Assembly: GCA_030390025.1 (NCBI GenBank)
Contig: CM059445.1
Location: 16,740,001-16,804,000, forward strand
Length of the DNA: 64,000 nucleotides
Direction: 5' to 3'
Source of the DNA: Squalus acanthias
Taxonomy: Eukaryota
Part shown: piece after piece, positions 4,301 through 48,587 of the stretch
How positions within the stretch are numbered: the first letter of the stretch is position 1
How the letters are laid out: each line of letters opens with the position of its first letter
Notes under the pieces: model-generated
Databases searched by the model: none
Seen by the model: the letters and a program-made list of their open reading frames with translations, nothing else
What the model was told of the DNA's origin: nothing
Position numbers and translations under genes: made by a program

Positions 4301-7300
4301 TGCCTTTAAGGTATTATGATCCAGCACTTCACTCGCTGTAATCCTCCATCTCTTTTTTGCCCCGCAGGGTCCTGCTGGTTTTCCAGGTGATCCCGGTCCT
4401 TCAGGCGAGCCAGGAGTTCCTGTAAGTGAAAGTCTTTGAAGCTAAACCTCAGTGTGGCCTCCCGGCACTTAATTGCAAGTCAGTGGTCCAGCTAATACGC
4501 CGTACGCACAACTGACTGAATTGCGGGCTGGTGTAGTCATTCACCTTTTCTCCCAATCTGTCTTTATTTTTATTTTTTTTACACACTGAGAAACCATGGT
4601 GAAAGCACCATATTGTCCGGGACAGCAACAATAGGTAGGGATACCAACTCCGGACATATCCCTGGAGGTTTAATACAATACCTCTTGCCTCCAACCGCCC
4701 CATCCAGTCAAACCACCTTTCTTCCCCATCTCTGATCCTTTTATAACTAATAAGTAAACGTGTTCAAAGAAACTGGGGAAAAAATAACCCTATGATTTTC
4801 CTCCTGGTTTGCTCACAGCAATGCCCTGGAGATTAAGCTTCAATTCCCGGAGACTCCAGGCCAATCCTGGAGGGCTGGCAACAATAGGAGAGAAAAGTCG
4901 ATAAATTCAGAACATAAGAAACAGGAGCAGGAGTAGGCCAGTCGGCCCCTCGAGCCTGCTCCGCCATTCAATAAGATCATGGCTGATCCAATCTTGGCCT
5001 CAACTCCACTTCCCCGCTCTCTCCCCATACCCCTTGACTCCCTTGTAGTTCAAATGTCTGTCAATCTCCGCTTTGAATATATTCAATGACTCCACCTCCA
5101 CAGCTCTCTGGGATAGAGAATTCTAAAGATTCACGACCCTCTGAGAGAAGAAATTCCTCCTCATCTCCGTCTTAAATGGGCGACCCCTTATTCTGAAACT
5201 ATGCCCCTAGTTCTAGATTCCCCCACGAGGGGAAACATCCTCTCAGCATCTATCCTGTCAATCCCCCTCAGAATCTTATATGTTTCAATAAGATCACCTC
5301 TCATTCTTCTAAACTCCAATGAGTATAGGCCCAACCTGCTCAACCTTTCCTCATAAGACAAGCCTTCCATCCCAGGAATCAACCTAGTGAATCTTCTCTG
5401 AACTGCCTCCAATGCAAGTATTTCCTTCCTTAAATATGGAGACCAAAACTGTACGCAGTACTCCAGGTGCGGTCTCACCAGCGCCCTGTAAAGTTGCATC
5501 AAAACTTCCCTACTTTTATACTCCATACCCCTTGCAATAAAGGCCAACATTCCATTGGCCTTCCTAATTACTTGCTGGAAGCCATTCTAAAGGTCGGTAG
5601 ATAGTAGGAAGGAGGGATGGGGTTCCACAGTATGAGTTCCTGGAAAAGTCTGACTGTTCGGTGAGGGACGAACGTTTCTCGGGGTCCCGTCAAACAACGG
5701 GGGCGCAAGAGAGCAGCAAAGAAACTGGGTCCTGGGCCCCGTTGGGTGGAACAGTGGACAAACACACTGTGCTTCCGCCACTAGGATTTAAGTTTCAATC
5801 CAACTCGGGCTGATTGGATGAAAGTCATGCTCGTTCATAGAATGATACAGCACAGAAGGAGGCCATTCGGCCCATCGCGTTTGCGCCGGCTCTTTCGAAG
5901 AGCGATCCAGTCAGTCCCTCTCCCCCGCTCTTTCCCCATATCCCTGCAATTTTTTCTCCTTCAAGTATTTAACCAATTCCCTTTTTGAAGGCTACTATTG
6001 AATCTGTATCCACCGCCCTATCAGGCAGCGCATTCCAAATCCTAACCACTCGTTGCGTAAAAAAGTTTTTCCTCATGTCACCTCTGGTTCTTTTGCCAAT
6101 CACCTTAAATCTGTGTCCTCTGGTTATCAACCCTTCAGCCACTGGAAACAGTTTCCCTTTATTTACTCTATCTAAAACCTTCATAGTTCTAAGTGAAATA
6201 AGCCTGGGTCTGTCTCAATATAGTTTGCAGTGGGCATGAATGAACAGCACAAAATTGCCCATAATTTGGCAAGTTGTCAGTCTCGATCAAAGGGGCTACA
6301 AGGATGGCCTGTCACTCTGGGTACAGTAGGGGACATCCTTCTGAAGGTCAGGTCAAAGTGGATTGTCAGAGAAGAGGAGTTTGTGACCAAGGCATCTGCT
6401 CTAGGCTAGAAAGTCATGCACTAGGAAGAGACAAAAACCAGACGGGATGAAAGAAGTGTTGATAATTGACAGTACTTTATGCCAATGTTACATTGTCCAG
6501 CTCCTACCCCCTCCAATAACACCTTTCCTTTGAGATTGTGGGTAAGGTTGGCATTCATTCTTCTCTATTTCCTGCCCCACTAAAAATAACTACTTAGAAT
6601 CATAGAATGATACAGCACAGAAGGAGGCCATTCGGCCCATCGTGCCTGTGCCGGCTCTTTGAAAGAGCTCTCCAAATAGTCCCACTCCCCCCCTGCTCTT
6701 TCCCCACAGCCCTGCAGATTTTTCCTCTTCAAGTATTTCTCCAATTCCCTTTCAAAAGTTATTATTGAATCTGCTTCCACCGCCCTTTCAGGCAGCGCGT
6801 TGCAGATCACAACAACTCGATGCGTAAAAAACAAAACCTCCTCATCTCCCCCTCTGGTTGTTTTATCCAAGTACCTTAACTTATCTGTGACAACCAATGC
6901 ATTTTCTGATTTTATCTTAGGGTGTGGATGGTGGAGTTGGTGAGAAGGGCAGCCTTGGAGACCCTGGATTACCGGTAGGTTCTTCACAGTCAAAGCAAAA
7001 CTATGCATTCATCAAAAACTGCTTATATTGTCTTAAAAGTATTTTTTTTTTTGGTTTAAACTCCTTCCCCCACCTCCCCACACCCATCTCCCACAAATCG
7101 CTGGGGTGCTATGCCTACAACTAGCTGACAGCATGGACTAAACAGACGCAGTTCCAATGGGTTTCTTCCTCCTGTGCGCAAGGTGCAGTCGCCCTGCAGC
7201 ACTGTCAGGGAAATGTAAAAAATGAGAAGTCGCACAACACCAGGTTATAGTCCAACAGATTTATTTAATTTTACAAGCTTTCGAAGCAGTTCGCTCCTTC

Positions 7301-10300
7301 GTCAGGTAAGTTAGCAATGAGAGAATCTCCCAGAATTCACAATTTAAACCCAGACAAAATCTATTCACATTATTCCTTACAACAAAGAGCACAGCCAAGA
7401 CAATGAGATGTGTCCCAGGGGGTCCAACGTGTCAAACCACCTGCTGGCTGCATATCCTGTCAATTTGTGTTCTTGTGTTTAAAAAAAAACACACCTGGGA
7501 AGACCGGCCATGATGTCAAGTCACGTTCTGTATCGTGACATGAACCCGATATCGCGATTGAGGCCATCCTCATGAGTGCGGAACTTGGCTATCAGTTTCT
7601 GCTCTATGATTTTGCGCTGTCGTGTATCTCGAAGGCCGCCTTGGAGAACGCTTACCCGCAGATCCGAGGCTGAATGCCCCTGGCTGCTGAAGTGTTCCCC
7701 GACTGGGAGGCAACCCTCCTGCCTGGCGATTGTTGCGCGGTGTCCGTTCATACGTTGTCTCAGTGTCTGCATGGTCTCGCCGATGTACCATGCTCTGGAG
7801 CATCCTTTACTGCAACGTATCAGGTAGACAACGTTGGCCGAGTCACATGAGTATGTACCGTGTACCTGGTGGGTAGTGTCCTCACGTGTAATGATGGTAT
7901 CTGTGTCCATGATTTGGCATGTCTTGCAGAGGTTGCCGTGGCAGGGTTGTGTGGTGTCTTGGTTGCTGTTCTCCTGAAAGATGGGTAATCTGCTGCGAAC
8001 GATGGTACTTTTGAGGTTAGGCGGCTGCTTGAAGCCGCCTAACCTCAAAAGTACCATCGTTCGCAGCAGATTACCCATCTTTCAGGAGAACAGCAACCAA
8101 GACACCACACAACCCTGCCACGGCAACCTCTGCAAGACATGCCAAATCATGAACACAGATACCATCATTACACGTGAGGACACTACCCACCAGGTACACG
8201 GTACATACTCATGTGACTCGGCCAACGTTGTCTACCTGATACGTTGCAGTAAAGGATGCTCCAGAGCATGGTACATCGGCGAGACCATGCAGACACTGAG
8301 ACAACGTATGAACGGACACCGCGCAACAATCGCCAGGCAGGAGGGTTGCCTCCCAGTCGGGGAACACTTCAGCAGCCAGGGGCATTCAGCCTCGGATCTG
8401 CGGGTAAGCGTTCTCCAAGGCGGCCTTCGAGATACACGACAGCGCAAAATCATAGAGCAGAAACTGATAGCCAAGTTCCGCACTCATGAGGATGGCCTCA
8501 ATCGCGATATCGGGTTCATGTCACGATACAGAACGTGACTTGACATCATGGCCGGTCTTCCCAGGTGTGTTTTTTTTTAAACACAAGAACACAAATTGAC
8601 AGGATATGCAGCCAGCAGGTGGTTTGACACGTTGGACCCCCTGGGACACATCTCATTGTCTTGGCTGTGCTCTTTGTTGTAAGGAATAATGTGAATAGAT
8701 TTTGTCTGGGTTTAAATTGTGAATTCTGGGAGATTCTCTCATTGCTAACTTACCTGACGAAGGAGCGAACTGCTTCGAAAGCTTGTAAAATTAAATAAAT
8801 CTGTTGGACTATAACCTGGTGTTGTGTGACTTCTCATTTTTGTCCACCCCAGTCCAACGCCGGCATCTCCACATCAGGGAAATGTAATGCAGCAGAGTTT
8901 AGAGGGTGTGAGCTGTTGCTGGATTTGTTAGTTACTTATGAAACTTTTTCTTGCTCCAAACTGTGATGTAAACAGAGAGGGACAGAGAAATGTCCAGGCC
9001 CAGAATGGCCCTTTTCTAGTTGGTCAAAATGTACATGAAAAGTCTTGGGGGTGGGGGGGGTGAATTCGGTTGCTTTGCGCCTCCCGCTAGCGCCCCAAGA
9101 GAGCACTAACGGGGCGCAAAGCAACTCGCGTCCGGGCACGGTGCCGCCAACGCCTCCCGTGAAATTCAGCAGGAGGTTAGCAGCGGCGCTAACCGTTAGC
9201 GCCCCGCGGCCCTGTGCCGCCGGCGATGATGTCATCGCCGTGCGCAGCGCCCCGCTTGCGCCCCGGCCGCGATCTTTAGTAGCGCCCCCTGACTTACCGC
9301 CGGACGCTATTTAAAGGCGAGGTGCCGGGCGGCCATTTTTGTTGCCAGCACCTGCCCCCGTTGCCATCCCTGGCCTCCTTACCCAACCCCCCGCGGAGTG
9401 CCGGCTGCGCGCCTTGAGCCCAGCACTTCTCTTGAGTGCCGGGCTCTTTTGCCGGTACTTCCGATCTGGGCCCCGGGTCACGCTGCGCAAGGCCGCGATA
9501 TTCCCTTGCAGCGCCCCAGTAGCGCCCCGCTTCCCTCTTGGGGCGCTTTGTAACTTCCTGCTCCCATCTACACAACATCCTAATTATCTGCAAATCTGGA
9601 TATTCCTTCATCCAAATCATTAATGTATGTGGTTAAAGAGAGACTTGCATTTATATAGCGTTCTTCACGATCTCAGGACGTCCCAAAACGCTTTACAGCC
9701 AATGGAGTACTATAGAAGTGTAGTTACCGTTGTACTGTAGTGAAAGCTGAGACCTTGGTACAGATCTGAGTAGATCATGCCAATCGGAGGCCTTTATCCC
9801 TATAACTTCCAATCAATTAGCAGTTGCTTGTTCAACACTTCCAGTAACGACTGAATGGAAATCACAGCAACACTTCAACCAGCTTTTTTGCTCCAGCCAG
9901 CCAATTGCTTGTTCTCGAAGCTGCTGAAGAGGCTGAATCCATGTAACGTCTCTTTGTTGGGTTTGCAGGGTCCAATTGGTGCATCTGGCGAACCAGGTCC
10001 TCCTGGGTCTCCTGGAAAGAGAGTAAGTATTGCATACAAGACAGAAGAGCTTGCACTTATATAGCGCCTTTCACGACCTCCGGACGACCCAAAGTGCTTT
10101 ACAACCAATGAGCTACTTTGAAGTGTTGTAATGTAGGAAACGCGGCAGCCAATTTGCGCACAGCAAGCTCCCACAAACAGCACTCTGATAATGACCAGAT
10201 CATCTGTTTTAGGTGTTGGTTGAGGGATAAATATTGAGCAGAACACCGAGGAGAATTCCCCTGCTCTCTTCGAAATGGTGACCATGGGATCTTTACGCCC

Positions 10301-13300
10301 AGCTAAGAGGGCAGACGGGGCCTCGGTTTAACGTCTCATCTGAAAGACAGCACCTCAGACTGTGCGGCGCTCCCTCAGCACTGCACTGGGAGTGTCGGCC
10401 TGGATTTTGTGCTCAAGTCTCTGGAGTGTCTTCCCTGAATGGGAGCAGTTTTGTTTGCGCTCTCAAAGTAGATCCCTTTTTAGAAACCGATTTTTTTCTC
10501 GTGCTGAATGTGCCTCATTTCGACCGTGGGGTGGACTTGGCAGCGACAGACAATTGTATAGACAAGATTTGCTGGCAGGAAGTTGCTCTGAACTTGCAAG
10601 CGTAACTTTAAAGCAGCTGTGTATGTGCAGATCTTGCACAATTCATGCAAATTCATGTTCGCAAGCTTAAGAACCTGCCTGGGGGGTCATTCCTGATGCC
10701 AGGAGAGGCTAGGGTTGGTGAAAGCATATTGCTGACCTGCGCAGAAAGACTAAGGGGTCAGATAACAAGGGTGGATCCAACAGGTCCTGCTGAGGGTAGC
10801 CAACGATCAGAGGGAACCTGAGGAAGACCCTTCCTATGAGCGTTTGGTACCCCTGGTGACATTGGCATCAGTTCGATTTGCTTTTCATGTGTCAGAAACC
10901 CTCCTGTAAAGTTAAACAGGGTGCGTGCCTGTTGTACGCATTCATTTCTGCTGGGCACAACACCCAGCCTCACTGCCTATAGTGCGTGTTGCTTATGCCT
11001 CTCTTCATATCCTGACCAATGCTTCTCTCTCAACCATCGCCAATAAAATTAACAGATGGCTCATCTCATTGCCATTTGTTTCATTTTTAAATTTTAATTA
11101 ACATTTAATTTTGAGATAACCTGCCTTTTTATCTCATTGATATGTCGCCCTTCACATCTCCAGGACCTTCTGAAAGTGCCTCACTGGCAATGAATCACTT
11201 TGGAAGTGCGGTCATTTGATGTGCAGCCAAATAGTGGCAGCGTGGTGCAGAATGGCAGTCACGTCTTCCCCGCTGAACAGTCGCCCCACAAGCGATTCAC
11301 TGTGTAAGACACTTGGGGATGATTTGCTGGCACTTCCAAGGCTTCATCCAGCTTTGAACGTAACTTAACGTTTGGTCACAATAGTCAAGGTCACGGAAAA
11401 GTGAATCGAAATTATGGAATACAATCCCTAACGCTCCCAAAAATTAGCGGAAAAGGAATGTGATTTATTCATAACCCAGTGGCCCCCCCCAACCGTATTC
11501 CTCAGAGTCGCTTGACATCTTTTTCCCTCTGGGAGTAATTATATGGTTTGTCGTTTGTCACTTTAGAAGGCTAGCATCCAAGAGCACGGGTGCCACGTAA
11601 AAGAAAGACCTTCATGATCGAGTGTTTAGTTTTCAATGCAATTCACAGGATCTGTGTTGGGAGGGAGGGCACTCTGCAAATGGAAGCATTGTTTGAAAGG
11701 GATTTGGATGGTGCTTTAACGCCGATGCATCACCGTGACAACCTATTCTGCAAGGTTCCTGCCCTTTGAGTGTGGGACTGGTGCAACCCTGGAATCTATT
11801 TTGTGCCATGTAATTGTACTCTGGTCACGTGCGGCGAATGCTGGAGCCCGAGGCAGCAATAATGTCACGCCGTGCGACCGCAAGCCCTGCACTCTGACTC
11901 GCATCGTTGCTGCCGGATTTTTTTAAATGATTTTTATAAGCTCGCTGGTTTCTAACGCAACTGCTCTCTTTCAGGGGCCTCATGGGCCTGCGGGGTCAGA
12001 GGGGCGAGAGGGCCTGAAGGGCTCGAAGGTATGGCTTTTTAATAAGCTTCACTAAATCGTGATTGTTAAATTTACTGGAGGGTTTTCTGCCTTTATCTCC
12101 AGACGACACGGACTCCGGTTCCATGAGTGCCGGCAGGCCTGTGCGGCCTCACCTGTTTGCCAGCTCTGCTAGTGAGCGTTGGCGGGCTATTTGACTTGGA
12201 GGGCATCACTGATGAAGGCAGTCTGTCCTCAGCTTCAGGCCATCCGCTCTCATTTTCCACCAATGGTCGCTGGTATGTCTGTCGGAACAGGGACCACGTC
12301 TGGATGTTTCCCTCAGCAACTAATCTTGACCCTGCGCTGCTGACCCTGGGTCCGAGGGCACGGCCCAAGCAGAACTTTCCCGTCCGTTTTGCTCTCCCAA
12401 CGGGGAGATGTTGCAGCATCCCAGTAACTCCCATCAAACTTAAATTGGGATACGGAGCAACGCAGGAATTGGATCTACTTTTTGTTTCTTGCCCCAAGCA
12501 ATAGTGTTCCAACATATCGTGATCCTTTGGAATTCTGTCCAGGGGGATATATGGGAAGGGGTTTGGCACACTGGAATTCTGTCCAGTGGGATATATGGGA
12601 AGGGGTTTGGCACACTGGAATTTTGTCCAGCAGGATATATGGGAAGGGCTTTAGCAAACTGGAATTCTGTCCAGTGGGATATATGGGAAGGGGTTTGGCA
12701 CACTGGAATTCTGTCCAGTGGGATATTTGGGAAGGGGTTTGGCACACTGGAATTCTGTCCAGTGGGATATTTGGGAAGGGGTTTGGCACACTGGAATTCT
12801 GTCCAGCGGGATATATGGGAAGGGGTTTGGTACACTGGAATTCTGTCCAGCAGGATATATGGGAAGGGGTTTGGTACACTGGAATTCTGTCCAGGGGGAT
12901 ATATGGGAAGGGGTTTGGCACACTGGAATTCTGTCCAGGGGGATATATGGGAAGGGGTTTGGCACACTGGAATTCTGTCCAGGGGGATATATGGGAAGGG
13001 GTTTGGCACACTGGAATTCTGTCCAGGGGGATATATGGGAAGGGGTTTGGCACACTGGAATTCTGTCCAGGGGGATATATGGGAAGGGGTTTGGCACACT
13101 GGAATTTTGTCCAGCAGGATATATGGGAAGGGGTTTAGCACACTGGAATTCTGTCCAGTGGGATATATGGGAAGGGGTTTGGCACACTGGAATTCTGTCC
13201 AGTGAGATATATGGGAAGGGGTTTGGCACACTGGAATTTTGTCCAGGGGGATATATGGGAAGGGGTTTGATACACTGGAATTCTGTCCAGCGGGATATAT

Positions 13301-16300
13301 GGGAAGGGGTTTGATACACTGGAATTCTATCCAGTGGGATGATTGGAAAGGGTTTGATACACTGGAATTCTATCCAGCGGGATGATTGGAAAGGGTTTGA
13401 TATATCTCAATTGCATGCAATGAAAAATTCCGTTTAATTGGGAATCTCCCTATAATTGCCCTGCCACAACTCGCCTCTAGTCTCGACCTTAGCGGAAATT
13501 ATCTTTAAAAATGTTCATGACTTACATGGGAAGCACAAGACGCAGCGAGCTGTGTTAAAATTTCCTGCGTGCATCCTGAGCACTAAATGTAAAACTAATG
13601 TGGCTCGCGGGTGAATCGCAAGCACTGACAAAAGCCGATGAAACCAATTTAGGATTTTCCACTTGGCTGAGTCTCTGAGGGTGGGGGTGGATGTAACAGA
13701 TTGTCCATAATTCTGCATTTCAAACCTCATTTATTTTATCGGACTTTTTCACAATGCTCGGCACTTACACTTTTTCTACAATTCATTCTCTGGATGTGGG
13801 CGTCACTGGCAAGGCCAGCATTTATTGCCCATCCCTAGTTGCCCCTCGAGAAAGTGGTGCTGAGCCGCCGCCTTGAACCGCTGCAGTCCATGTGGTGAAG
13901 GTACTCCCACAGTGCTGTTAGGGAGGGAGTTCCAGGATTTTGACCCAGCGACGATGAAGGAACGGCTGATATATTTCCAAGTCGGGATGGTGTGTGACTT
14001 GGAGGGGAACTTGGAGGTGGTGGTGTTCCCATGCGCCTGCTGCCCTTGTCCTTCTAGATGGTGGAGGACGTGGGTTTGGGAGGTGCTGTCCCTTTGATTA
14101 AAAATAAGGTTCTTAACTGAATCACGTGGTGTTAGATATTTGTATTTTTAGATAAACTCCTTACAAGCACAACATCCTATATATTTACAGAATAACATCA
14201 TGTGGCCGTGTTATTTTTCATGTAGGGTTCGCCCGGACGAGAAGGCCCAACAGGTAGGACTGGGCCTGTGGGGCCACAGGGCTCACCAGGCAATCATGGG
14301 CCTGAAGGACTCCGAGGGATACCTGGCCCCGCAGTAAGTAAACGATACAAAGAGACTGTTATCATTATTATTTCATCATAAACTGTATCAACTGCTGGAC
14401 ATATTATCAATGGATAACCACTCGCAATGTCTTTTCTTTTCAAACAGGGAGAACAAGGCCTTCCTGGACCTCCCGGTCAGTCTGGTCCACCTGGCCCGAT
14501 GGTAAGATAGGAACAGGAGGAGGCCATTCAGCCCCTCGAGCCTGTTCCGCCATTCAATGAGATCATGGGTGATCTGTATCCTAACTCCATCCACCCGCCC
14601 TGGCTCCAGATCCTTATGTACCCTTGTCTAGCAAAAATCTATCGATCTCCGATTTAAAATTATTAATTGAGCTAGCATCTATTGCTTTTTTGTGGGAGAG
14701 AGTTCCACACTTCTACCACCCTTTGCGTGTAGAAGTGTTTCCTAACTTCTCTCCTGAATGGCCTGGCTCTGATTTTAAGGTTATGTCCCCCTTGTCCTAG
14801 ACTCCCCTATCCTCGATGTTCCCCCTAATTAGTTTTTGAGTGCGTGGCCCCTTTAAGGGGCTGTGCGGGCCATTCACAGTTTTGCGCATGCGCGGAATTT
14901 AGCATTGGAAAAGCTGGTCGTGAGGGACCGGCAAACAGCCGAGCAGCTTAGTGGGAACATTGCCCACCAGTGCAAAATGTTTCTCTCTACCTACCTTATC
15001 AATTCCTTTCAAAATCCTAAAAACCTCAATCCAATCCTCCCTTAACCGTTTACATTCCAGGGAATACAAGCCTAGTTGATGTAATCGCTCCTCATATAGT
15101 TTAACCCTTGGAGCCCTGGTAACATTCTGGTGAATCTGTGCTGCGCTCCTTCCAAGGTCAATAGATCCTTTCTAAGGTGCGGAGCCCAGAACTGCTCTCA
15201 GTACTCCAGATGTGGTCTAAGCAGGGCTTTGTACAGCTGTAGCTAAACCTCCTCCCATTTATATTCTAGCCCTCTAGCTACAAAGGCTAACATTCCATTA
15301 GTCTTTTTGATTTTATTTTTTGCGCCAGACTGCTACAGCTTAATGATGGAGTAGATTTAATCTGAGACTGATGATTCGGCCCTCTGCTTACAGAATGATT
15401 TTGAGAAACGGCTACCCTCCTGGGCAAACCAGTTTTATTTATTTTCAGTTCGTGCACTGTGACACTGAACTAAACTGCAATATTAAATAAAAACACAAGA
15501 CATAGGGGGCGGGAGTAGGCCATTCGGCCCCTCGAGCCTGCTCCGCCATTCAGTAAGATCACGGCTGATCTTTGACCTCACCTCCACCTTCCTGCCCGAT
15601 CCCCAAATCCCTTGATTCCCTTAATATCCAAAAATCTATCGCTCAGCCTTGAATATACTCATCGACTGAGAATCCACAGCCCTCTGGGGTAGAGAATTCC
15701 AACGATTCACCACCCTACACAATATTACTGTTTAAAAAAAAAAAATAACCTTCTCAAACTTCAAGAATATCTTAACTCCTGCAATATTAACTCCATGCCA
15801 GCAAATTAAATCCCTCAAATAATTTCATGCTAAAAATAATTTAACCTGTACTCGCCCAGCTATAATTTTTTCCTCTCCCAATTCTCTATTCTCTTACAAT
15901 CCTAGAATCCTACAGCACAGAAGAGGCCATCCAATTAGTCCCACTCCCCCTGCTCTTTCCCCATCGCCCTGCAAATTTCTCCTCTTGGAATATTTATCCC
16001 ATTCCCTTTTTGATAGTTACGATTGAATCTGCTTCCACTGTTCCGCACCCATGAGGACGGCCTCAACAGGGATCTTGGGTTCATGTCACGCTACATGTAA
16101 CCCCACCTGACGTAGAGTCATCCAGACTCGAGTCGTCGTTGGCTTGTTCTCTCTACACAGATGCGGCCAGACCTGCTGTGATTTCCAGCAAAAAAAGTTT
16201 TTTGTTTTCCATACAGACCCCAGCATCTGCCACATTTGACACCCTGTGAGCCCACCTCATTGTCTTTGATGTAAAGTTTTCCTGACTGACCTGTTTGGAC

Positions 16301-19300
16301 ACCATCCACACCTTTGATTGCCGTGATTATCTCTCTGCCGAGGTGTGATAAAGGGCAGTTAGAAAGATTAACTGTAGTCATCTGGCAGTGTTCTCTGACT
16401 ATATATGCTGTGCCTATATGCATCTCTTCACTTCACCTGACGAAGGAGCAGTGCTCCGAAAGCTTGTGATTTCAAATAAAACTGTTGGACTATAACCTGG
16501 TGTTGTGCGACTTCTCACACTGCCCTACCAGTCAGCGTGCTTTCCAGCATTTCCTTTAACTATGATTTTACTCTTTTTCTACCTATTTTAACCCTTTATA
16601 TTTTTTTTTTAAGTTTAAAGTGTTTCATTTCTTGTTCTCCTGCCTCCCTCTCCCACCAGCGATTTTGAAGGCCCAACGCCTTAAAATGAGAGTGTGCATT
16701 CCATATCGGGCAAACAGAACCTGCCCGAGTGGACTTTACAGCAGCTTGGTGTGGAGATCCTTAAATATGGGGATGGGACGCCGCACGTGTCTAGCTGACC
16801 GGAACATAGTGCCTCTCTTTCTTGATCTCCCTCCCTGCCTGTAATGATTTGCAAACATTCTCTGTTGCTTGTAGGAAAGGAGGAGGCTTACTATGGGGAG
16901 CAAGCTAACCCACCGTTCACAGCCATTGCGGAGGGCAATAGGTTCGGAATCAAAGTGAAATCCAACCTCTCTCGCTCTCACTCTCCAAAGAGAGATGGTG
17001 AGCGTAGTGTGACGAAATACTGGGATTGGGAGATGGCAATCCTGGGAGGAGGGCGAGAGGTTGTCAACATCTGTGGGACGCTCCTGCCTTTATATTAGGG
17101 GGACCTCGTTAAATCTCATCTGCTTGTCTTTTAATGTGTGTAACTGTCTGTTTTCTTACACTGTTTAGGGCCCTCCCGGTATGCCTGGTCTGAAGGGGGA
17201 TGAAGGATTAAAAGGTGACAAGGTAGGCAATCTCCTCAGATCCGTTGAAGAGATGGTGTGTTCGTGATGGCCTTGTTCTAATCACTTCTATAGATCCACT
17301 GGCACCCAGAGCCACATTCCTATTTAATACCCAACCTCATTTCATCCCAACACCGTTGAATTATCTACAGTAGTGATATATTAAATGTTATTACACTTAA
17401 TATGTCTCTCTTGCACACTCTGGGGGACGGTAGCATAGTGGTTATGGTACTGGCCTAGTAATCCCGAGGCCTTGACTAATAATCTGGAGACGTGAGTTCA
17501 AATCCCACCACAGCAGCTGGGGAATTTAAATTCAGTGAATTAAATAAATCTGGAATAAAAAGCTAGTGTCAGTAATGGTGACCATGAAACTACCGTAAAA
17601 ACCCAACTGGTTCACTAATGTCCTTTAGGGAAGGAAATCTGCTGCCCTTACCCGGTCTGGCCTATGTGGTTGACTCTTAACTGCCCCTCTGAAATGGCCC
17701 AGCAAGCCACTCAGTTGTAACAAATCACGACGACAAAGTCAGCACTGTGGGAGTACCTTCACCACACGGACTGCAGCGGTTCAAGAAGGCGGCTCACCAC
17801 CACCTTCTCGAGGGCAATTAGGGATGGGCAATAACTGCTGGCCTTGCCAGCGACACCCAGATCTCATGAACGAATAAAAAATAAATAAAACACTCTCACT
17901 CTCTCACATTCACAGATTTAATACTAAAGAGTTTGAAAATATGTAAATAACTGACATAACTTATGAATTTTCTTTTGTTCATTCATGGGATGTGGGCGTC
18001 GCTGGCAGGGCCAGCATTTATTGCCCGTCCCTAATTGCCCTGTGAGTACAGAGGCCATCCGAGTTCTGATGAGAGGTCATCCACCTGAAAAGTTAACTCT
18101 GTTTCTCTCTCCACAATTAAACCTGGCAGCAAGTTAGCAACATGTGTGCTCTGCCTCCTATTGGTCTAAGGGGCATTTTTCTTTGGGGTTTTTACTCCAG
18201 ATGTTCCCATGGGTTTAGCCTCATTGGCCCTTCCACAAGAAGAACTCTCATCTCCTATGAACCAGTGTGTGCTTTTACCTGCTCACTATCTGGGTAAAAG
18301 ACACGAGACCCAGGGTTTGAACAGTGAGCCCAATCACTGTACTCTGGTTTACTGGAATATATTGCATACTCCCCGGTGGTGATCTCATCTTCTGCAGGCA
18401 AATGAATTTCAGACTGAGGGAGGGGTCAGACTCTAATCCACTAGATACATATATTGAACATTAAACCGGTAAATAGACAGTGCTCAGTACAAATGGTATA
18501 TTTACAGTAAATAGACACTTTACCAATCTCAAAATGTCAGTAAGAACATTAAACTAATGCTTGATGCACCGTTCCTTCACTTCATTAGTGGTTCCTGAAA
18601 GGGGACTCGCCCTTTGCTTTGATGGCTTTGGAGTGACTGCTGCCTTTGTGCAATGCTACCCAAGATAGAATTCCAAATGTCTTTGACAATAGCTCAGAGT
18701 AAAAGGAAATAAAAGCTGTACTAGATTAGCCATTCAGAGGATTGAATGGAATCACTTGACTCCTTCCTGGGAAACCCATTGATTTAGTTCCAAACACGTT
18801 GGATCTGATCCAAGGGCGATGGCAGCATTCTAATTCTCCTGTCGTTTTTCCCTGTTTGTCTTTTCTAGGGGCATGCTGGTTTGATTGGCTTGATTGGACC
18901 TCCTGGTGAGATGGGCGAGAAGGGAGATCGAGGCCTTCCAGGAAACCAAGGAACACAAGGCCCCAAGGGAGAAATTGTGAGTACTGAGGCCATCCAATTG
19001 TTTACAAGCTACGATTCTGACCTACATTTTTGGCGGCAGACTTCACTGATATTGTGGGGAGGGGGGGAGGAGAGAGACGATAAGGAGGTCCTCAAGGGCC
19101 AACAAAGGGTCCAGCAACAATCCGCACTGTGTGATGTTTGCTGTCTCTGGTATCTTGCCTCTGGTGAGGTGAATATAAACGAGGCGTGATTTGGCTGCCA
19201 ATCCGCTTGAGGCATTCGTGCCACATGTACATGCCAGTTTTCCTCATCCCCCAATTCTCACTGCCATGACGGCCTGGTGCAGCACGCCTTATCTGCTCGT

Positions 19301-22300
19301 TGAGGGAGCTCCATGATTTATGAGAATGTGGCCTCAATGTGTTCTAGTGACCCAAAGCATCCACTAAAACAGTTTGATTGCATGAGGGAGCTGAGCAGTT
19401 CAACCCGGAAGGCTGAGCTCACCCTCTGCAGAGAGCCGGCACGAACTCGATGGGCCGAATGGCCTCCTTCTGTGCCTCTATGACTCAACAAATAATATAA
19501 AGTGCAATAACTTTCCAAAATGTGCATTTGCTCCACTATCAACTACAACAACTTGCATTTCTATAGCGCATTTAACGTTGTGCAACATCCCAAGGTGCTT
19601 CACGGGAGCGATTATCAGACAAAATTTGACACCGAGCCACATGAGATATTGGGGCAGGTGACCAAAAGCTTGGTCAAAGAGGTCGGTTTTAAGGAGCCTC
19701 TTAAAGGAGGAGAGAGAGGCGGAGAGGTTTAGGGAGGGAATTCCAGAGCTTGGGGCCCAGGCAGCTGAAGGCACGGCCGCCAATGGTGGAGCTCTGTGAT
19801 TTATCTTTATAAATATGCAAACTGTGAGCAATGCCACAGAACATCTGTTAGTATCTCATCTTTTTATGATTCATAACTTAATCTTTTTTTCTCCCTATTT
19901 TAGGGTCTTCCAGGTTTCGGTGGTCCTTTAGGCCCACCTGGGTCTCTTGGTTTACCAGTAAGTCGATATTTTTTTCTTAGGGTGGGGAAGGCTCCATTTC
20001 GCTCTTGGTAGCCGATCTGTTGCCAATTCATTATTTGTGTCTGTAAAATAATAGTTAATTGGCTCAATAGTTTAGTGGGCATCACAATCTATAGGTTGAC
20101 AGTTCTTGTGCTTGTAGCAAGCTTTTCCAAAGGGCACATGTTCAAACTGGCAAACTCCAAATCTTGGATTGACATCAGGAAATTCTCCACACAAAAGCCT
20201 GATCGAGACATGACATGGACTTCTGGAGAGGGTAATGGAGGCGAAAAACCTGGAACTGTTTAAAGAACAACTGGATGGGGTTGGCAAGACTGCAGGTTCT
20301 ATCCATCTAATGGATGAGCAAGGTTGGGCTGAATGGCCATCCTTAGCCATTCTTGTCTTGCGATGCGACAGATCGCTACCTCGTAAGCATTTGGTTTGCT
20401 AATGTGCAGTGAGCTGCAGGAACTGTCGAATCCTCAATCCATCCAGTACGTTCCAGTTCTGCTTTTAGTTACGATCTCATGGAGCAAGATGGCTGCTCAT
20501 TAAGTACAACTACAAGTATACTCTGTACAGTCAAACCTCCTTCTGCGGCGAGTGTCTCACCTCCTGACTCCCCAAAGCCTTTCCACCATCTACAAGGCAC
20601 AAGTCAGGAGTGTGATGGAATACTCTCCACTTACCTGGATGAGTGCAGCTCCAACAACACTCAAGAAGTTCGACATCATCCAGGACAAAGCAGCCCGCTT
20701 GATTGGCGCCCCATCCACCACCTTAAACATTCACTCCCTCCACCACCGGCGCACCGTGGCTGCAGTGTGTACCGTCTACAAGATGCACTGCAGCAACTCG
20801 CCAAGGCTTCTTCGGCAGCACCTCCCAAACCCGCGACCTCTTCCACCTAGAAGCACAAGGGCAGCAGGTGCATGGGAACACCACCACCTCCAAGTTCCCC
20901 TCCAAGTCACACACCATCCTGACTTAGAAGTATATCGGCGATCCTTCATCGTCGCTGGGTCAAAATCCTGGAACTCCCTCCCTAACAGCACTGTGGGAGC
21001 ACCTTCACCACACGGACTGCAGCCGGTCAAGAAGGCGGCTCACCACCACCTTCTCAAGGGGCAATTAGGGATGGGCAATAAATGCTGGCCTTGCCAGCGA
21101 CGCCCACATCCCATAAACAAATTAAAAAAAAAACTTAGCAGTGCCCTCAATGTATTCACTATTAGATTGTGTCTCCAAAATGTAGCAATGAGAATCCATT
21201 AATTACCCACAAGGAGCTCATATTTAAATAATGAATTTCATTATTGAATGGGGGAGATTCTTGATGAAGTCCATTGTAAAGATAAATTCAGAGGAAGAAG
21301 TTTCAGCAACAGAAAAAGTCAACCAAGGTCGGTCAAGGAAGGCCAAGTCTTTGCAAAATTGGGGCATTGTGGTTTGAAAGGTGCCTTTATTTTTGAAGTT
21401 AAAGAGCATAGGTTGGAGTCCTTGTACTTAGTTGAAATCTGGATGAGGAGAGAGGCACACAGATTACTTGCAGAATTTGTGACTGCTGCCTGGGTTCAGA
21501 ACTTGCGTTGGTGAAGGGCAAGACTTTGGAAGAATTAAGTCAAACTTTGAGGTTGTCTTCCAGAAAATGTTCCCAGACTCTCACTCACAAAACTCTGCTA
21601 GTTCTAATCAAGTACCGAGCCAGTTTAAGTTTTCGAGAAGGGGCTGACTGAACCTTTCTTCCAAGGTTTCAGCCAGGGTCAAATTTTCACTGAGGCAGAC
21701 ATGGCCGCCCTGCCTGCAACAGACATGGCCGCCCTGCCTGCAACAGACATGGCCGCCCTGCCTGCAACAGACATGGCCGCCCTGCCTGCAACAGACATGG
21801 CCGCCCTGCCTGCAACAGACATGGCCGCCCTGCCTGCAACAGACATGGCCGCCCTGCCTGCAACAGACATGGCCGCCCTGCCTGCAACAGACATGGCCGC
21901 CCTGCCTGCAACAGACATGGCCGCCCTGCCTGCAACAGACATGGCCGCCCTGCCTGCAACAGACATGGCAGCCCACTGTATTTTACTGTTAGATTCCACA
22001 TTTCAGCAAGTTGCTTTTATACTTCCTATCTTTATTGTACATGTGTAATAAAGTTTTTCATTCAATCTTTCTATTGTACACTTGCTAGCCGTCTGCTTTC
22101 CCATGAAACTCATTACAGAAACAAATAACCAATGAGTTGTTTGAGTTGTCTTGATGGCGCCTACAACTCTGCACCGGACTGTTCTAGAATCCTGAAATTC
22201 CTGATTATTGGTTGGCTAAAATCTGTCACGTTTTCCCCTTTCTTTTGTTTTAGGGTCAACAAGGTCAGAAAGGTTCTAAAGGTTCCGATGTAAGTAGCTT

Positions 22301-25300
22301 CAATTATTGTTTTGTTGGTCTTTACAACGGATGAAGCTGTGCAGCGTCATTCCATGGTCCTTGAACTGAACATTGTGTGATCTCTTCCTTGCAGGGACCC
22401 TTTGGCCTGAGAGGTGACAATGGGCCACCCGGTCCTCCTGGTCCACCTGTAAGCTTTCATTCATTTATTAATTTCTTGTTGAGGGGAGGGCTATGGGAAG
22501 TAACTGCATTTTCCCCGTGTTAGAGTGGATGAAGCTTTGGTCGTCACCCAAACTGTTCACTTGTGGCCGTCGGCAATATCCCTTCAAGGTTAGACCTTTA
22601 CGGCTGGTGCTGGAAATCTAAACGTTTTTCAGGTTAGTGTATCTTGTCCAGTTGGACATGAAGAGATGTTCAAATAAGAACAACAGGAGCAGGAGTCGGC
22701 CATTCAGCCCTTCGAGCCTGCTCCGCCATTCAATATGATCATGGCTGATCTTCTACCTCATCTCCACCTTCCCGCCATATCCCTTGATTCCTTTGGTATC
22801 CAAAAATCTACCGATCTCTGTCTTGAATATACTCAACGACTGAGCATCCACAGCCCTCTGGGGTAGAGAATTCCAAAGATTCACAATTCTTTGAGTGAAA
22901 ACATTTCTCCTCATCTCAGTCCTAAATGGCCAACCCCTTATTCTGAGACTGTGACCCCTGGTTCTAGACTCCCCAGCCAGGGGAAACATCTGCCCTGTCA
23001 AGCCCTTTTAAGAATATTATATTTTAAATGTAGATGCAATTTATTTTTCAGTAATTAACTAAATATTTCCTTGTAACTCAACGAAGGATAAAAATGATTC
23101 TCACTGCCATTGGGGAAATGGAGCTTCAACGATCCCTCCTCTTGTTTGTAGTAGTCCCACAATTTCCCCCCTCGCCTTCTCCTAGGGTTAACTCACAATT
23201 CTGTAGACAAGTGCCCAGCTTGGTAACCTGATCCGAGGCTTATTCCAAACCTTGTTAACATTTCAGGCCGATGACCTTTCATCAGAACATCATCGACCTG
23301 AAACGTTAACTCTGTTTCTCTCGCCACAGATGCTGCCCCGAGTGTTTGCAGCATTTTCTGGTTTTGTTTCAGATTTCCAGCATCCGCAGTCTTGCTTTTG
23401 TTTTCTATTTCAAGCTGTTTTGTTAAACCAGCCCCAGAGGGTGCCATTGTGAATCACCTCGTAGTTTATCCTTTCATCGACGAGGAAGCACTTGGCCACT
23501 TCCTTGCACCTTCCCCTGCTGGTACATCTTAATATTAGGGACTCAGCACGGGACATTGAAATCCCTCTTTTAATGACAACAGGCGATTTTTTTTTAACGT
23601 AATTAACAGCCTAACAAAATCACACTCTCATAACTCGCGCGATTCAAAGCTGTGCTCGTTATTAAGTGGAGAAAGCGAGCATTAAACTAGTTACTGTTAA
23701 AATGCCATTTAATAGCAATTTTTTTTTTGTTCGTTCCTGGGATGTGGGCGTCGCTGGCAAGGCCGGCATTTATTGCCCATCCCTAATTGCCCTTGAGAAG
23801 GTGGTGGTGGGCCGCCTTCTATAACTGATTGGCTTGCTCTTCCATTTCAGAGGGCAGTTGAGAGTCAACCACGGCTAATTAACTTAGTGAACCAGATGAC
23901 ATTAGTGTACGGCAATCCGGTAGTTTCATGGTCACCGTTACTGACACTAGCTTTTTATTCCAGATTTATTTAATTAACTGAATTTAAATTCCCCCAACTG
24001 CCGTGGTGGGATTTGAACTCGTGTCTCCTGGATTACTAGTCCAGGCCTTTGGATCACTAGTCCAGCAACATAACCACTATGCTACCGTACCCCATATTTA
24101 TGCCCCATTGTGGTTTAATCCTTAAAAGTGCAGACGTAACCTCCCACCCTGTAGTACTGAACCGCCATGTTGCCCTTATGTTATCCCCAGGACTCACTGT
24201 ACATGGAGTCTCTGCCACTGTGAGTAATTTATAATAGACACTCAAGAGACTTGAGAGGGTCTTGGACAAAGTGTACATGTTTTATTAGTTATAAAAGATG
24301 TTACAATACAAGAAATAAAGAGTTAAAATACTTGTAGCGTAGTAAAATAAGAGATACAACCTGGTAACATCTTCATGGTTTCGAGGCGATCGATCTCGAA
24401 TGTGGTAACACAAGAGGGGTCCCGTCTCACTCCAATAACGTTCTAATATTCTATGCTTCATATCTGCCTTGTCTACAATAAATCACTCATTATATTACGG
24501 GAACTTGAGCCTGCTTTTTGTGCTTGTATGTCAATAGATTTCAATGCTCCTGCCCCCGCAGGGTAAGCAGCCTCCCGCACAGTTCCCATGCTATCAACCC
24601 ATAAACATAAGAAACCCACAGTAGACAAAGTGCCTTCTGACAGAGGTGTGCAAGGCCAGCCACACAAACTGCTGAATTCTACTGAATAGTCATTTTCTCA
24701 CACCCACATTCAAGTTATAGAAGGTAAATTTGTGGTTAGCTACGATGAATGATAGGCTGTTGCAGTCTCCTGGACTCTTAATGTCCTTGGCGGGCGTAGA
24801 GGGAGGGGTGATAGGGGAGAGGGAGAGGGTGGGTTCCCTGAGGTTCTCCTAACATGCCCACAGGTTATTTCTGTGGGTTGAGGGGCTGGGCAAAAGGTCC
24901 ACGCGGTCGCTGGATGAGGCGCGTTTGGTCCGTTGTGTATGTCGGTGCACCATCCTGATATGAACGGGCTCCTGTCTCTGTCCCGACCAGGGCCCACCAG
25001 CTGAGACCATACAGCCACTACCGATGTACAGAAAGAAGACTAGGAGGCATGCTGAGACCGAACAGGCCGATGATGACGGGGGGGGTTACTCCGACTACGC
25101 CGATGGCATGGAGGAGATCTTCGGGGCTCTGTCTTCACTGAAAGACGAGGTAGAACAGATGAGACGTCCAGTGGGGACGCAGAGCAACCCCGGGCGTACC
25201 TGCAAGGAGCTTCAGCTCTGTCACCCACACTTCAAGGATGGTAAGTTAGAAAACTCATTTAGCAGCCTGCTCCCTTCTCGGGTCTGCTCCATGCTTTGTG

Positions 25301-28300: not shown

Positions 28301-31300
28301 TGCGGTAGCGAGTTCCACATTCTTACGGTAAAGAAGTTTCTTCTGAATTCCCTATTTGATTTCTTGGTGACTATCTTATATTGATGGCCTCTAGTTTTGC
28401 TCTTCCCAAGACTTGCATTTATATAGCGCCTTTCACAACCACCAGACGTCCCAAAACGTGTTACAGCCAATGAAGTACTTTTTTGAAGTGTAGTCACTGT
28501 TGTAATGTAGGAAACGTGGCAGCCAATTTGCGCACAGCAAGCTCCCAGAAACAGCAATGCGATAATGACCAGATAATCTGTTTTAGTGATGTTGGTTGAG
28601 GGATAAATATTGGCCAGGACACCAGGGAGAACTCCCCTGCTCTTCTTCGAAATAGTGCTGTGGGTTTTTTTTTTACATCCACCTGAGAGGGCAAACAGGG
28701 CCTCGGTTTAATGTCTCATCCGAAAGACGGCACCTCCGACAGTACAGCGCTCCCTCAGCACTGCCCCTCCGACAGTGCGGCGCTCCCTCAGTACTGCCCC
28801 TCCGACAGTGCGGCGCTCCCTCAGTACTGCCCCTCTGACAGTGCGGCGCTCCCTCAGCACTGCCCCTCCGACAGTGCGGCGCTCCCTCAGCACTGCCCCT
28901 CCGACAGTGCGGTGCTCCCTCAGCACTGCCCCTCCGACAGTACGGCGCTCCCTCAGCACTGCCCCTCCGACAGTGCGGCGCTCCCTCAGCACTGCCCCTT
29001 CGACAGTGCGGCGCTCCCTCAGTACTGCACTGGGAGTGTCAGCCTAGCTTTATGTGCTCAAGTCTCTGGAGTGGGACTTGAACCCACAACCTTCTAGACT
29101 CAGAGGCTAGTGTGCTATCCACTGAGCCACTGGCTGACACGGAATGACCAGTGAATCTGTTTCTGGTGTTGTTGCTTGATCATTTCCACACGTTATATTG
29201 TTCCTCTTCAAACAGCACTGTGGTCACTTTAAAATCCACCTGAACACCAGACAAGGCCTCCGTTTAATATTTCCTCTGAAAGACGGTACCTCCGACACTG
29301 CAGCACCCCCTCAGTAAAGGATGACACACATCTAAATCAATAGCAAAAATTAGTTAGCTTGTTAAAATAGAGGTCAAAATGTCCAATTAAGTTAAAATTG
29401 AAAATATAAGACAGAGAGTAAAGGCCAGAAAGAAAGCCACTGGGGAGTGATTTTAACCCTACTCGCTCAGCAGAAACCTGGCCGGCGGGCAGTTAAAATC
29501 GCCCCTGGCTCTTACCCATCCGAAAGCCGCCAGGATCGCAACATCTGCGATTTTAACGTGCTCTCTTGAGCAGGCAGCAAGGACACCCGCCCGGAGCCAA
29601 CGGGGTCCTTCTTTACACCCGCACGTCGCGGCCCGATGACATCACTGAGACCCGACTGTAATTTTAACTCAGGCCCGAGCGGGGAATCCACCTGGAGTTG
29701 AAACCGGGGTCACTGAGTTTGTGAGCACTGGTAAAGTGTAAAATTATGTTCTGGCAGATTAGCAACAACAGCGTGCATTTATATAGCATCTTTAACATAG
29801 AAAAACATTGAAGGCCCCTCACAGAAGCGTGATTAGCTGGGCAATGAGCTATGGGGGGCGCGGGGGGTGACTAAAAGCTTGGTCAAAGAGGATTAGGATT
29901 AATGGGCCGAAAATTGATCCCGGGACGCGAGAGTACGCACTGCATACTCTCGCGTATTCCCACTCCAATTGCCGGTTTTCTGCATGCCCTGCGCATGCGC
30001 TGAAAACCGGCAATTGCTCTTCCGAAAAGGGGGCGGGGCCGGAGTGCATCGCGTGCGCGCTACAGGCTGCGCGCACGCTGTGCACTTCATGCTTTGGACG
30101 CGCAGGTAAGTACTGAAGATTTTGGAAATGTAAAAAGGAGGAGTAAGACCCGCTTTTAAGAAGGTAAGTAGTGAATTAAGTATTTTTTTGAATTTTTTTT
30201 TACAGGTATATCTTTTTTATAGACTTTAAAGACAGGTAAGTTTATTTTTATAACTTTTTAAAAGATTTTAAATTTTTTCAAAAATTTAATTTTTTATTTA
30301 AAATGGTTAATTTAATTAACTATACTTATTTTATTAATGTGATGGGGTTTTTTTTAAATTTAATTGAGGTTTAGCTGTTATTTTGGGGGGGTGTAAGATT
30401 CATAAGTCTCTCAGCCATGCTGTGAGACTTATGAATGGAAGATGGTGTGCTGCCATTGGCTCTAACTGAGTCACGTGATCCCACAGCTCGCACGAATTAA
30501 CTACGCCGCTGGGATACGCAAGCCCAGCACAGCTGATGTCTGGAACATCAATTTCGTGCGAGCTGGATCAGAAAAAGCATAAGCGAGGTGAGACATCGCG
30601 GGAAAGGCTTACCCCCGCGGGAACAGAGCGAGATCAATTTCTGGGCCAATATCTTGGAGTAGTGTTGGGGGTGGTGGGGAGCCGGGTGGCTCGAGTTTGA
30701 TTCCTGGGCCTTTGTAACTGGACATTTTTAGCCGCTGCCCGAATCTTGTTTCTGCGTCAGCCGTGGCTCAGTGGGCAGCACACTCGCCTCTGAGTCAGAA
30801 GGTTGTGGGTTCAAATCCCACTCCAGGAACTTGAGCACAAAAAGCTAGGCTGACACTCCAGTGCAGTGCTGAGGGAGCGCTGCACTGTCGGAGGGGCAGT
30901 ACTGAGGGAGTGCTGCACTGTCGGAGGTGCCGTCTTTCGGATGAGACGTTAAACTGAGGCCCCGTCTGCTCTCTCAGGTGGGCGTAAAAGATCCCATGGC
31001 ACTATTTCGAAGAAGAGCAGGGGAGTTCTCCCCGGTTTCCTGGCCAATATTTATCCCTAAACCAACATCAATAAAAACATATTATCTGGTCATTATCACA
31101 TTGCTGTTTGTGGGAGCTTGCTGTGCGCAAATTGTTGATGTTGAGTACTGAGGCTGTTGCAGCGATGCCGTCATCGTGGGGGATACTGGTGTAGAGTGCC
31201 GATACGTCCATCGTGGCAAGGAGTGTTCCTGGTTCAACTGGTCCGTGGGTGCTGAGTTTCTGTAAGAAGTCTGTAGTGTCGCGACAGAAGCTGGGGGTTC

Positions 31301-45365: not shown

Positions 45366-45635
45366 TGTCTCCGAATTCTGCTTTTTTTTTATCCCCCCCT
45401 TCCTTATCTGAAGATATTACAAAGTTACAAATATTTACAGCACCGAAACAGGCCATTCGCCCAAGCGTTTGGGTCATCGGTCCTAATACCTCCTCATGGG
45501 GCTCGGTGTTAAATTTTTATCTGATTACGCTCCTGTGAAGCACCTCGGGATGCCTTACTATGTCAAAGGGGGCTATGTAAATGCACATTGTTGTTGTTGT
45601 TGTGGGCTGAAGGTGGCCAACACCAGTCCTTCTGA

Positions 45636-48523: not shown

Positions 48524-48587
48524 GGCCCTCTGAATATCTTGATGGACGCGAATTGTGTTGCGGCTCATGATTTTCTCTTGTGGTTAG

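What the first reader, a model, noticed from the sequence alone, without database searches (positions are those of the whole stretch)
7205..8887. 1.6 kb near-perfect palindrome made by one fold-back Penelope-like insertion in a collagen intron
Seen: 7218-8026 is the reverse complement of 8033-8841 (809 bp arms), with a 6 nt loop GCTTGA. I found only two mismatches, near 7232/8827 and at the Asp/Asn codon. The whole unit is flanked by one 14 bp TSD, TCAGGGAAATGTAA. The loop bases continue the native ORF (FKQPPNLK) on the minus arm, so there is effectively no foreign spacer. Known: PLEs can leave inverted partial copies, and long, almost spacer-less palindromes are unstable and rare in genomes. 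Inference: this is a young single event in which cDNA folded back or switched template onto itself. The pre-mRNA would form an ~800 bp dsRNA stem (ADAR/Dicer substrate) and the DNA could extrude a cruciform.
Basis: partly seen in the sequence, partly recalled or inferred. Interest (0 to 1): 0.85.

Follow-up and report, generated by a model that had tools for sequence, protein, structure and literature searches.

The report
Shark retroelement inserted as long palindrome
A Penelope-type jumping gene landed in a shark collagen intron as two back-to-back mirror copies, a layout already known for these elements, and is unusual here only for being so long and nearly perfect.

Summary
The palindrome is real: arms 7218-8026 and 8033-8841, 807 of 809 positions complementary, 6-nt loop, 14-bp duplication at 7205/8874, inside a fibrillar-collagen intron. 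Each arm is the 3' end of a Neptune-like Penelope element (PLE): GIY-YIG endonuclease 88% identical to a Heptranchias RT-EN protein, CX4CxxC linker, minimal hammerhead ribozyme. Head-to-head inversion, one-sided tail, TSD and junction palindromes are the published PLE layout (PMC3846280, PMC8557442), and 5 of 9 PLE-type loci in this window are head-to-head. The loop continues the tail-less arm, so one cDNA folding back cannot supply the tail. Most likely both target strands primed reverse transcription at the two known start sites (PMC11167929) and one cDNA snapped back. 'Young' is only relative; ADAR/Dicer processing and cruciforms are untested. Verdict: a known kind, extreme in arm length and spacer. 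Interest 0.3.

The parts
6921..6974 (+). Upstream 54-nt Gly-X-Y collagen exon
6975..9968 (+). Host intron, 2994 nt (1325 nt without the 1669-nt net insertion)
7205..7218 (+). Left copy of target-site duplication; base 7218 shared with the arm
7218..8026 (-). Left arm: 5'-truncated PLE 3' end (EN, 3' UTR, pLTR), tail-less. Ends within a few nt of where three other copies in the window end
7271..7309 (-). Minimal hammerhead ribozyme motif, left arm
   Evidence: mirror of 8750-8788
7521..8033 (-). Open 170-codon C-terminal ORF fragment FKQPPNLK...SRYRT* (linker plus GIY-YIG endonuclease), running through the loop
8027..8032 (.). 6-nt loop; native continuation of the left (tail-less) arm, with 1-2 nt of inferred microhomology at 8033-8034
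8033..8841 (+). Right arm, same orientation as the collagen gene; carries the derived allele at both mismatches (8152; 8827, a CpG transition)
8035..8538 (+). Open 167-codon EN fragment; CX4CxxC linker at 8116-8142, VYL...YIG core with two Cys at 8230-8280
8250..8403 (+). Candidate cryptic exon (CAG| ... |GTAAGC, 154 nt, frame-shifting); matching edges appear in some shark gene models
   Evidence: inference
8750..8788 (+). Minimal hammerhead motif: stem I TTAC/GTAA, CTGACGA core, 5-bp stem II, GAAA-GC-TT
8842..8873 (+). 32-nt PLE 'tail', right arm only; its translation [10 protein letters not shown] also follows the pLTR in a Scyliorhinus torazame RefSeq model (P0016)
8874..8887 (+). Right copy of target-site duplication
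9969..10022 (+). Downstream 54-nt Gly-X-Y collagen exon

Best explanation
One insertion of a Neptune-like, endonuclease-bearing Penelope element. (1, inferred from the TSD) The enzyme cut both strands about 13-14 nt apart, leaving two 3' ends. (2, inferred; shown in vitro for the anole element) Each end primed reverse transcription inside the RNA: the top strand at the tail-less start site (7218), the bottom strand at the tail end (8873). (3, shown by sequence) Both copies are 5'-truncated and meet head to head; the top-strand cDNA ran at least 6 nt further. (4, inferred) That 3' end snapped back on 1-2 nt of microhomology, leaving a 6-nt loop, and was extended along itself into the complementary second cDNA, which gives equal arms whatever the second cDNA's length. 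(5) Fill-in made the TSD. The product has no RT gene, cannot move by itself and is most likely a tolerated passenger. Because the left arm is transcribed first, the hairpin should sequester the sense arm's cryptic splice sites and ribozyme (inferred).
For: Anatomy. Both outer ends are element 3' ends; the tail-less end recurs in the 3 other family copies aligned; the tail is element-derived. The anole PLE protein nicks and extends both strands from two adjacent RT start sites that bound the tail (PMC11167929). TSDs of 13-14 bp occur at three more PLE-type loci here: 37341/37442, 45622/46622, 48062/48525. Short palindromes sit at the junction in 2 of the 4 other head-to-head loci: 11 bp at 46495-46528 and 8 bp at 48250-48277, against background rates of 0.3% and 2.8% in 3000 random 61-nt windows. 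'Palindromes at the inverted junction' are reported for rotifer PLEs.
Against: The junction centres were chosen by eye after seeing the sequence, and the other 2 of 4 junctions (23k, 32k) are at background level. The native base upstream of the loop is unknown; the residue is Ala in 26 of 40 motif-bearing homologues, so microhomology is only 1-2 nt and the starting hairpin is weak. Loop orientation can flip later by arm-to-arm recombination (recalled, not tested), which weakens the strand argument. The main text of PMC11167929 does not report inverted products. That the unit is one real PLE insertion is about 0.9 likely; the full mechanism is less sure.
Confidence: 0.58

Rival explanations
1. 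Double priming without fold-back: two cDNAs, from two RNAs or from an RT dimer moving along one RNA, stopped within about 8 nt of each other and were joined by 1-2 nt of microhomology.
For: Explains tail, TSD and loop equally well. The PAc protein is predicted to be a dimer and extends both strands. The spacer belongs to the arm with the shorter 3' end in 3 of 4 informative loci (focal, 23k, 48k), as a leading/trailing pair of RTs would give.
Against: Independent stops within 8 of about 815 nt are unlikely; other spacers here are 15, 179 and >100 nt. At the 45.6-46.6k locus the spacer comes from the longer-ended arm.
Confidence: 0.2
2. One self-primed or folded-back hairpin intermediate, with the tail removed from one arm by endonuclease resolution (as PMC8557442 suggests for tails) and possibly a later flip of the loop.
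For: Near-identical arms, tiny loop; proposals in print.
Against: A fold-back from the tailed end would put the loop in the opposite orientation. In vitro the tail marks two RT start sites rather than a trimming site.
Confidence: 0.12
3. An ordinary unequal-armed inverted insertion later lost its spacer or had its arms homogenised by gene conversion, so it is older than it looks.
For: Unequal-armed versions are the norm in this window. The arms share many differences from the best homologue (88% amino-acid identity).
Against: The ORF fragment is open, 35-36 CpGs per arm survive, and the hammerhead stems stay paired in 35 of 36 cells with one double change, which points to a distinct active subfamily rather than decay. 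Short spacers make palindromes less stable, not more.
Confidence: 0.05
4. Fold-back read or assembly artefact.
For: Such structures are hard to assemble (PMC8557442). No reads were available.
Against: Unique flanks on both sides with collagen exons in order, a TSD, a one-sided tail, and two transition mismatches, one at a CpG kept in the left arm and all 3 other copies. A mirrored read would copy the flank and would not create a TSD.
Confidence: 0.05

Closest known systems
Endonuclease-positive Penelope-like elements, Neptune/Nematis type (motifs as given in PMC8557442)
   Same: C-terminal GIY-YIG EN with two Cys inside the core, upstream CX2-5CxxC linker, hammerhead in the pLTR, 5' truncation, inverted 5'-truncated copy, 30-40 nt tail at one end.
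   Different: Here both copies are truncated to the same length, so the whole insert is a 1.6-kb palindrome. No RT in this insert. Clade not placed by phylogeny.
Adineta vaga Pen2/Pen2a/Pen3a insertions (PMC3846280)
   Same: Head-to-head inverted pLTRs, 31-bp tail on one of them, 8-10 bp TSD, palindromes at the inverted junction.
   Different: Palindromes given in the passages read are 18-38 bp (figure not seen); here 809-bp arms and a 14-bp TSD.
Anolis Poseidon PAc in vitro mechanism (PMC11167929)
   Same: Two adjacent RT start sites bounding the tail, and both strands nicked and extended, match the two outer ends here.
   Different: Different clade (no CX2-5CxxC linker in Penelope/Poseidon); the main text describes no inverted products.
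Shark PLE ORFs in RefSeq (Heptranchias perlo P0001, Scyliorhinus torazame P0002, Mustelus asterias P0003-P0005)
   Same: 75-88% identity over 99% of the 170-aa fragment; P0001 carries an RVT_1 domain.
   Different: No identical protein among the hits; genomic layout of those loci not available.
L1 twin priming (recalled, from no call)
   Same: Both target strands prime, producing an inversion under one TSD.
   Different: L1 twin priming copies non-overlapping parts of one RNA and gives no long palindrome; here the same segment is present twice.

Membership tests
EN+ Penelope-like element | C-terminal GIY-YIG endonuclease | tested here: met
   ESM Atlas GIY-YIG clusters score 0.96 (PF01541 on 23-31% of members); VYL...YIG core. 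Pfam and PDB sequence searches of the fragment gave no hit.
EN+ Penelope-like element | CCHH motif, two Cys between GIY and YIG | tested here: met
   [17 protein letters not shown], with His downstream in GEHF and SQGH; definition from PMC8557442.
EN+ Penelope-like element | RT and EN in a single ORF | tested here: inconclusive
   RT is absent from this truncated insert. The best homologue P0001 has RVT_1 plus this EN; a second locus, 31131-31775, is 93% identical to P0001's RT region.
EN+ Penelope-like element | Minimal hammerhead in the pLTR | tested here: met
   Descriptor hit in both arms; 0 hits in 50 random 64-kb Markov sequences. 97% of cells paired against 25-53% when slid, but 249 of 500 shuffles match, so covariation is not significant with 4 rows. 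Rfam found no hammerhead. Cleavage not tested.
EN+ Penelope-like element | 30-40 nt tail at one end | tested here: met
   32 nt at 8842-8873, one arm only; same translation in P0016.
EN+ Penelope-like element | 5'-truncated inverted copy and variable TSD | tested here: met
Neptune (versus Penelope/Poseidon) | CX2-5CxxC linker upstream of EN | tested here: met
   CHGNLCKTC; shared with Nematis and Naiad.
Neptune (versus Nematis) | Placement in an RT phylogeny with reference elements | not tested
   No named reference PLE set was available from the tools.
miRNA precursor / structured ncRNA | Rfam gathering score | tested here: not met
   Best hits mir-153 48 < 54 bits and MIR475 47.8 < 70; generic hairpin matches.
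Cruciform-forming fragile palindrome (PATRR-like) | >90% AT near-perfect palindrome with shown breakage | tested here: not met
   Arm GC 48%, centre 63%; PATRR description in PMC7999016. Breakage itself is not testable here.

The most novel reading that the evidence does not exclude
Shark genomes hold many kilobase-scale, almost spacer-less PLE palindromes made by priming on both strands plus cDNA snap-back, and keep them for 10^5-10^6 generations. They would then be a fossil record that settles how PLEs make their second strand and inverted ends, and a natural test of how a vertebrate germ line tolerates palindromes of a kind that stalls replication and breaks chromosomes in yeast and mammalian cells.
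Probability: 0.3. Interest if true: 0.55.

Novelty: new member of a known kind. Interest (0 to 1): 0.3.

Why it matters
As one locus it matters little: it is a non-autonomous retroelement fragment in an intron. Its use is as a clean footprint. The tail on one arm, the loop belonging to the other arm and the 14-bp TSD tie the in vitro result (two RT start sites, both strands extended) to the long-known but unexplained inverted PLE ends; the authors of PMC11167929 and PMC8557442 describe these later steps as not yet validated. A genome-wide count of such loci would test that link cheaply and would show whether long tight palindromes persist in slowly mutating sharks.

Tried and rejected
Pfam and PDB sequence search of the EN fragment: no hits; the family call rests on homologues, motifs and the Atlas. 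Rfam: only sub-threshold miRNA-hairpin matches, rejected. MFE folding of the hammerhead regions gave weak z-scores (-0.7 to -1.5), as expected for a motif thought to need a dimer, so it was not used as support. Looking for other head-to-head junctions through antisense-translated pieces in 87 homologous proteins gave weak minus-frame hits in 4 unnamed proteins (P0024, P0043, P0055, P0076; E 0.002-0.024); these may be spliced or chimeric predictions and none shows a near-zero spacer, so inconclusive. The idea that the spacer always comes from the tail-less arm failed at 1 of 4 informative loci (45.6-46.6k). Naming the collagen paralogue failed: 6 hits, none with a gene name; 'type V/XI-like' is recalled from the [10 protein letters not shown] motif, not tested. 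One 25-bp hit at 60577-60601 (E 0.004) was dropped before counting 9 PLE-type loci. Passages of PMC12910113 and PMC9004415 held nothing on PLE palindromes; those of bioRxiv 10.64898/2026.07.22.740005 only report hammerhead retrozymes in one chondrichthyan and Neptune/Poseidon as widespread.
Full report
Observation. Extending outward from the centre gives 809-bp arms, 7218-8026 and 8033-8841, with two mismatches (7232/8827 and 7907/8152), no gaps and a 6-nt spacer. The next-best perfect stem with a spacer up to 50 nt anywhere in the window is 17 bp. The 14-mer TCAGGGAAATGTAA occurs only at 7205 and 8874; 0.08% of 20,000 random positions share a 14-mer at that spacing. The unit sits in a 2994-nt intron between 54-nt Gly-X-Y exons of a fibrillar collagen gene on the + strand. 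The paralogue was not identified; type V/XI-like is recalled from a motif.

What the arms are. Each arm is the 3' end of a Penelope-like retroelement (PLE). The minus strand of the left arm gives an open 170-codon frame, 88% identical to an RT-plus-endonuclease protein from the shark Heptranchias perlo and 75-83% to ones from Scyliorhinus and Mustelus, so the host is most likely a cartilaginous fish (inference). The fragment has a CX4CxxC linker and a VYL...YIG core with two internal cysteines, the Neptune/Nematis-type signature described in PMC8557442 (passages), and its nearest named Atlas clusters are GIY-YIG (0.96). Pfam and PDB sequence searches were blank. A minimal hammerhead of the kind described for PLEs in PMC4209133 (parts 1-2 of 4 read) lies in each arm (8750-8788 and its mirror); the same descriptor had no hit in 50 random 64-kb sequences. 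Across four family copies 35 of 36 stem cells pair, with one double change, though this is not significant against shuffles.

The insert is asymmetric. Thirty-two bases (8842-8873) follow the right arm only. They are element sequence: the same reading, [10 protein letters not shown], follows the pLTR translation in a Scyliorhinus gene model (P0016). The left arm stops without them, within a few bases of where three other copies in the window stop. This is the PLE 'tail'. The loop, read on the minus strand, continues the left, tail-less arm (FKQPP); the next residue upstream is Gly here but Ala in 26 of 40 motif-bearing homologues, so native sequence ends 1-2 nt past the loop.

How common the layout is. 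PMC3846280 (passages and sections 7 and 11) calls inverted pLTRs with a one-sided 31-bp tail and a TSD the typical Penelope structure and notes an abundance of head-to-head inverted repeats with palindromes at the junction. PMC8557442 (passages) and PMC8969392 (passages) also list inverted truncated copies and one-sided 3' extensions. In this window I count 9 PLE-type loci (one 25-bp hit dropped): four of this family (7.2k, 16.0k, 31.1-32.4k, 37.4k) and five of a second hammerhead-bearing family whose PLE status rests on the ribozyme and layout (18.1k, 23.3k, 45.6-46.6k, 48.1k, 55.2k). Five of the 9 are head-to-head; TSDs of 13-14 bp occur at four (focal, 37k, 46k, 48k). Measurable spacers at the others are 15, 179 and over 100 nt, with paired arms of about 20-110 bp. 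So the orientation is routine here, and the focal locus stands out for arm length, identity and spacer.

Mechanism. Both outer ends are element 3' ends, one with and one without the tail. PMC11167929 (parts 1-2 of 4, covering the main text) showed that an anole PLE protein nicks and extends both target strands and starts at two adjacent RNA sites that bound the tail. Applied here (inference): the top-strand end at 7218 primed from the tail-less site and the bottom-strand end at 8874 from the tail end. A lone fold-back does not work, because the strand that reads natively through the loop starts at the tail-less end and has no template for the tail. For the centre I favour snap-back of the longer cDNA onto 1-2 nt of microhomology, extended into the complementary second cDNA. 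Support: short palindromes lie at the end of the longer arm in 2 of the 4 other head-to-head junctions (11 bp and 8 bp; background 0.3% and 2.8%). Against: those junction centres were picked by eye, the other two junctions are at background, and a loop can invert later by recombination between arms (recalled). Two cDNAs stopping almost together, or a hairpin intermediate trimmed by the endonuclease, remain possible. The spacer belongs to the shorter-ended arm in 3 of 4 informative loci, not all.

Age and reality. Both differences are transitions with the derived state on the right arm: 8827 is a CpG kept in the left arm and all 3 other copies, and the Asp at 8152 is kept in the left arm and 9 of 10 aligned homologues. 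If both arose after insertion, 2/809 at 7e-10 per site per generation (epaulette shark, PMC10587355 passages) gives about 1.8 million generations, Poisson range 0.2-6.4 million; the rate's own interval (1.4-14.1e-10) widens this. If they are RT or template differences the age could be nil; gene conversion would hide greater age. An artefact is unlikely given unique flanks, ordered exons, TSD, tail and a CpG-type mismatch, but no reads were available.

Consequences. The + strand RNA folds into an 808-pair stem in silico. Editing, dicing and cruciform extrusion are untested. Short spacers raise risk (PMC7999016 passages), but the centre is 63% GC. The right arm is sense to collagen and has an acceptor before 8250 and a donor at 8404; the aligned PLE pieces in 14 named shark gene models, picked as host-gene chimeras, end at the matching residues (123-125) in 5 and begin at the matching residue (73) in 3 (these are predictions). 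Inclusion of the 154 nt would shift the collagen frame, so masking by the hairpin may help the insert be tolerated. That is a hypothesis.

Novelty. Eight full-text searches (six on PLEs) turned up the general layout but no report of kilobase near-perfect PLE palindromes in sharks, nor an explicit link between double priming and head-to-head inserts in the parts I read. That is a weak negative: Arkhipova 2006, Evgen'ev and Arkhipova 2005, Pyatkov 2004 and Repbase/Dfam entries were not read, and figures and supplements were not opened. Verdict: a real, extreme example of a known insertion type; interest 0.3 rather than 0.85.

Noticed in passing
window 31125-32450: Second locus of the same PLE family: about 400 codons of N-terminal/RT ORF on the minus strand (93% identical to P0001 over 215 aa, one in-frame stop) joined head-to-head to a short plus-strand pLTR; the left end is cut off by another repeat.
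   Followed up: partly
window 45622-46635: Head-to-head hammerhead-bearing insert with a 14-bp TSD, interrupted by a ~610-bp unrelated repeat (45795-46405); 11-bp palindrome at the junction.
   Followed up: partly
window 48062-48537: Head-to-head insert of the second hammerhead family, 13-bp TSD, 179-nt spacer, one arm about 67 nt longer at its 3' end, 8-bp junction palindrome.
   Followed up: partly
window 23254-23400: Small head-to-head hammerhead fragment with 21-bp arms and a 15-nt spacer; TSD uncertain (7 bp).
   Followed up: partly
window 37341-37454 and 16036-16522: Single-orientation copies of the focal family: an 88-nt pLTR stub with a 13-bp TSD, and a ~480-nt copy inside another repeat with a possible 5-bp TSD and a second, degenerate hammerhead-like stretch near 16104-16190.
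   Followed up: partly
window 7981-8538 (+) and 8078-7521 (-): The palindrome creates an ATG-started 185-codon frame on each strand whose first 15 codons are antisense element sequence. Probably incidental.
   Followed up: partly
proteins P0007, P0016, P0019, P0023, P0033, P0035, P0036, P0037, P0070, P0077, P0087: RefSeq models of several shark host genes (a cytochrome P450, septin 5a, XRCC5, PPP1R12A-like, IQCK, FSTL5 and others) include pieces of this PLE endonuclease, often with shared edges: recurrent exonisation or recurrent annotation error.
   Followed up: partly
window 12528-13400, 21696-21975, 28727-29030: Tandem arrays with 44-, 24- and 33-nt units in collagen introns.
   Followed up: no
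window 22254-22289: A 36-nt Gly-X-Y exon among otherwise 54- and 108-nt exons near the end of the triple-helix region.
   Followed up: no
window 17811-18041: 74-bp inverted pair, 86% complementary, 83 nt apart, from another repeat family.
   Followed up: no
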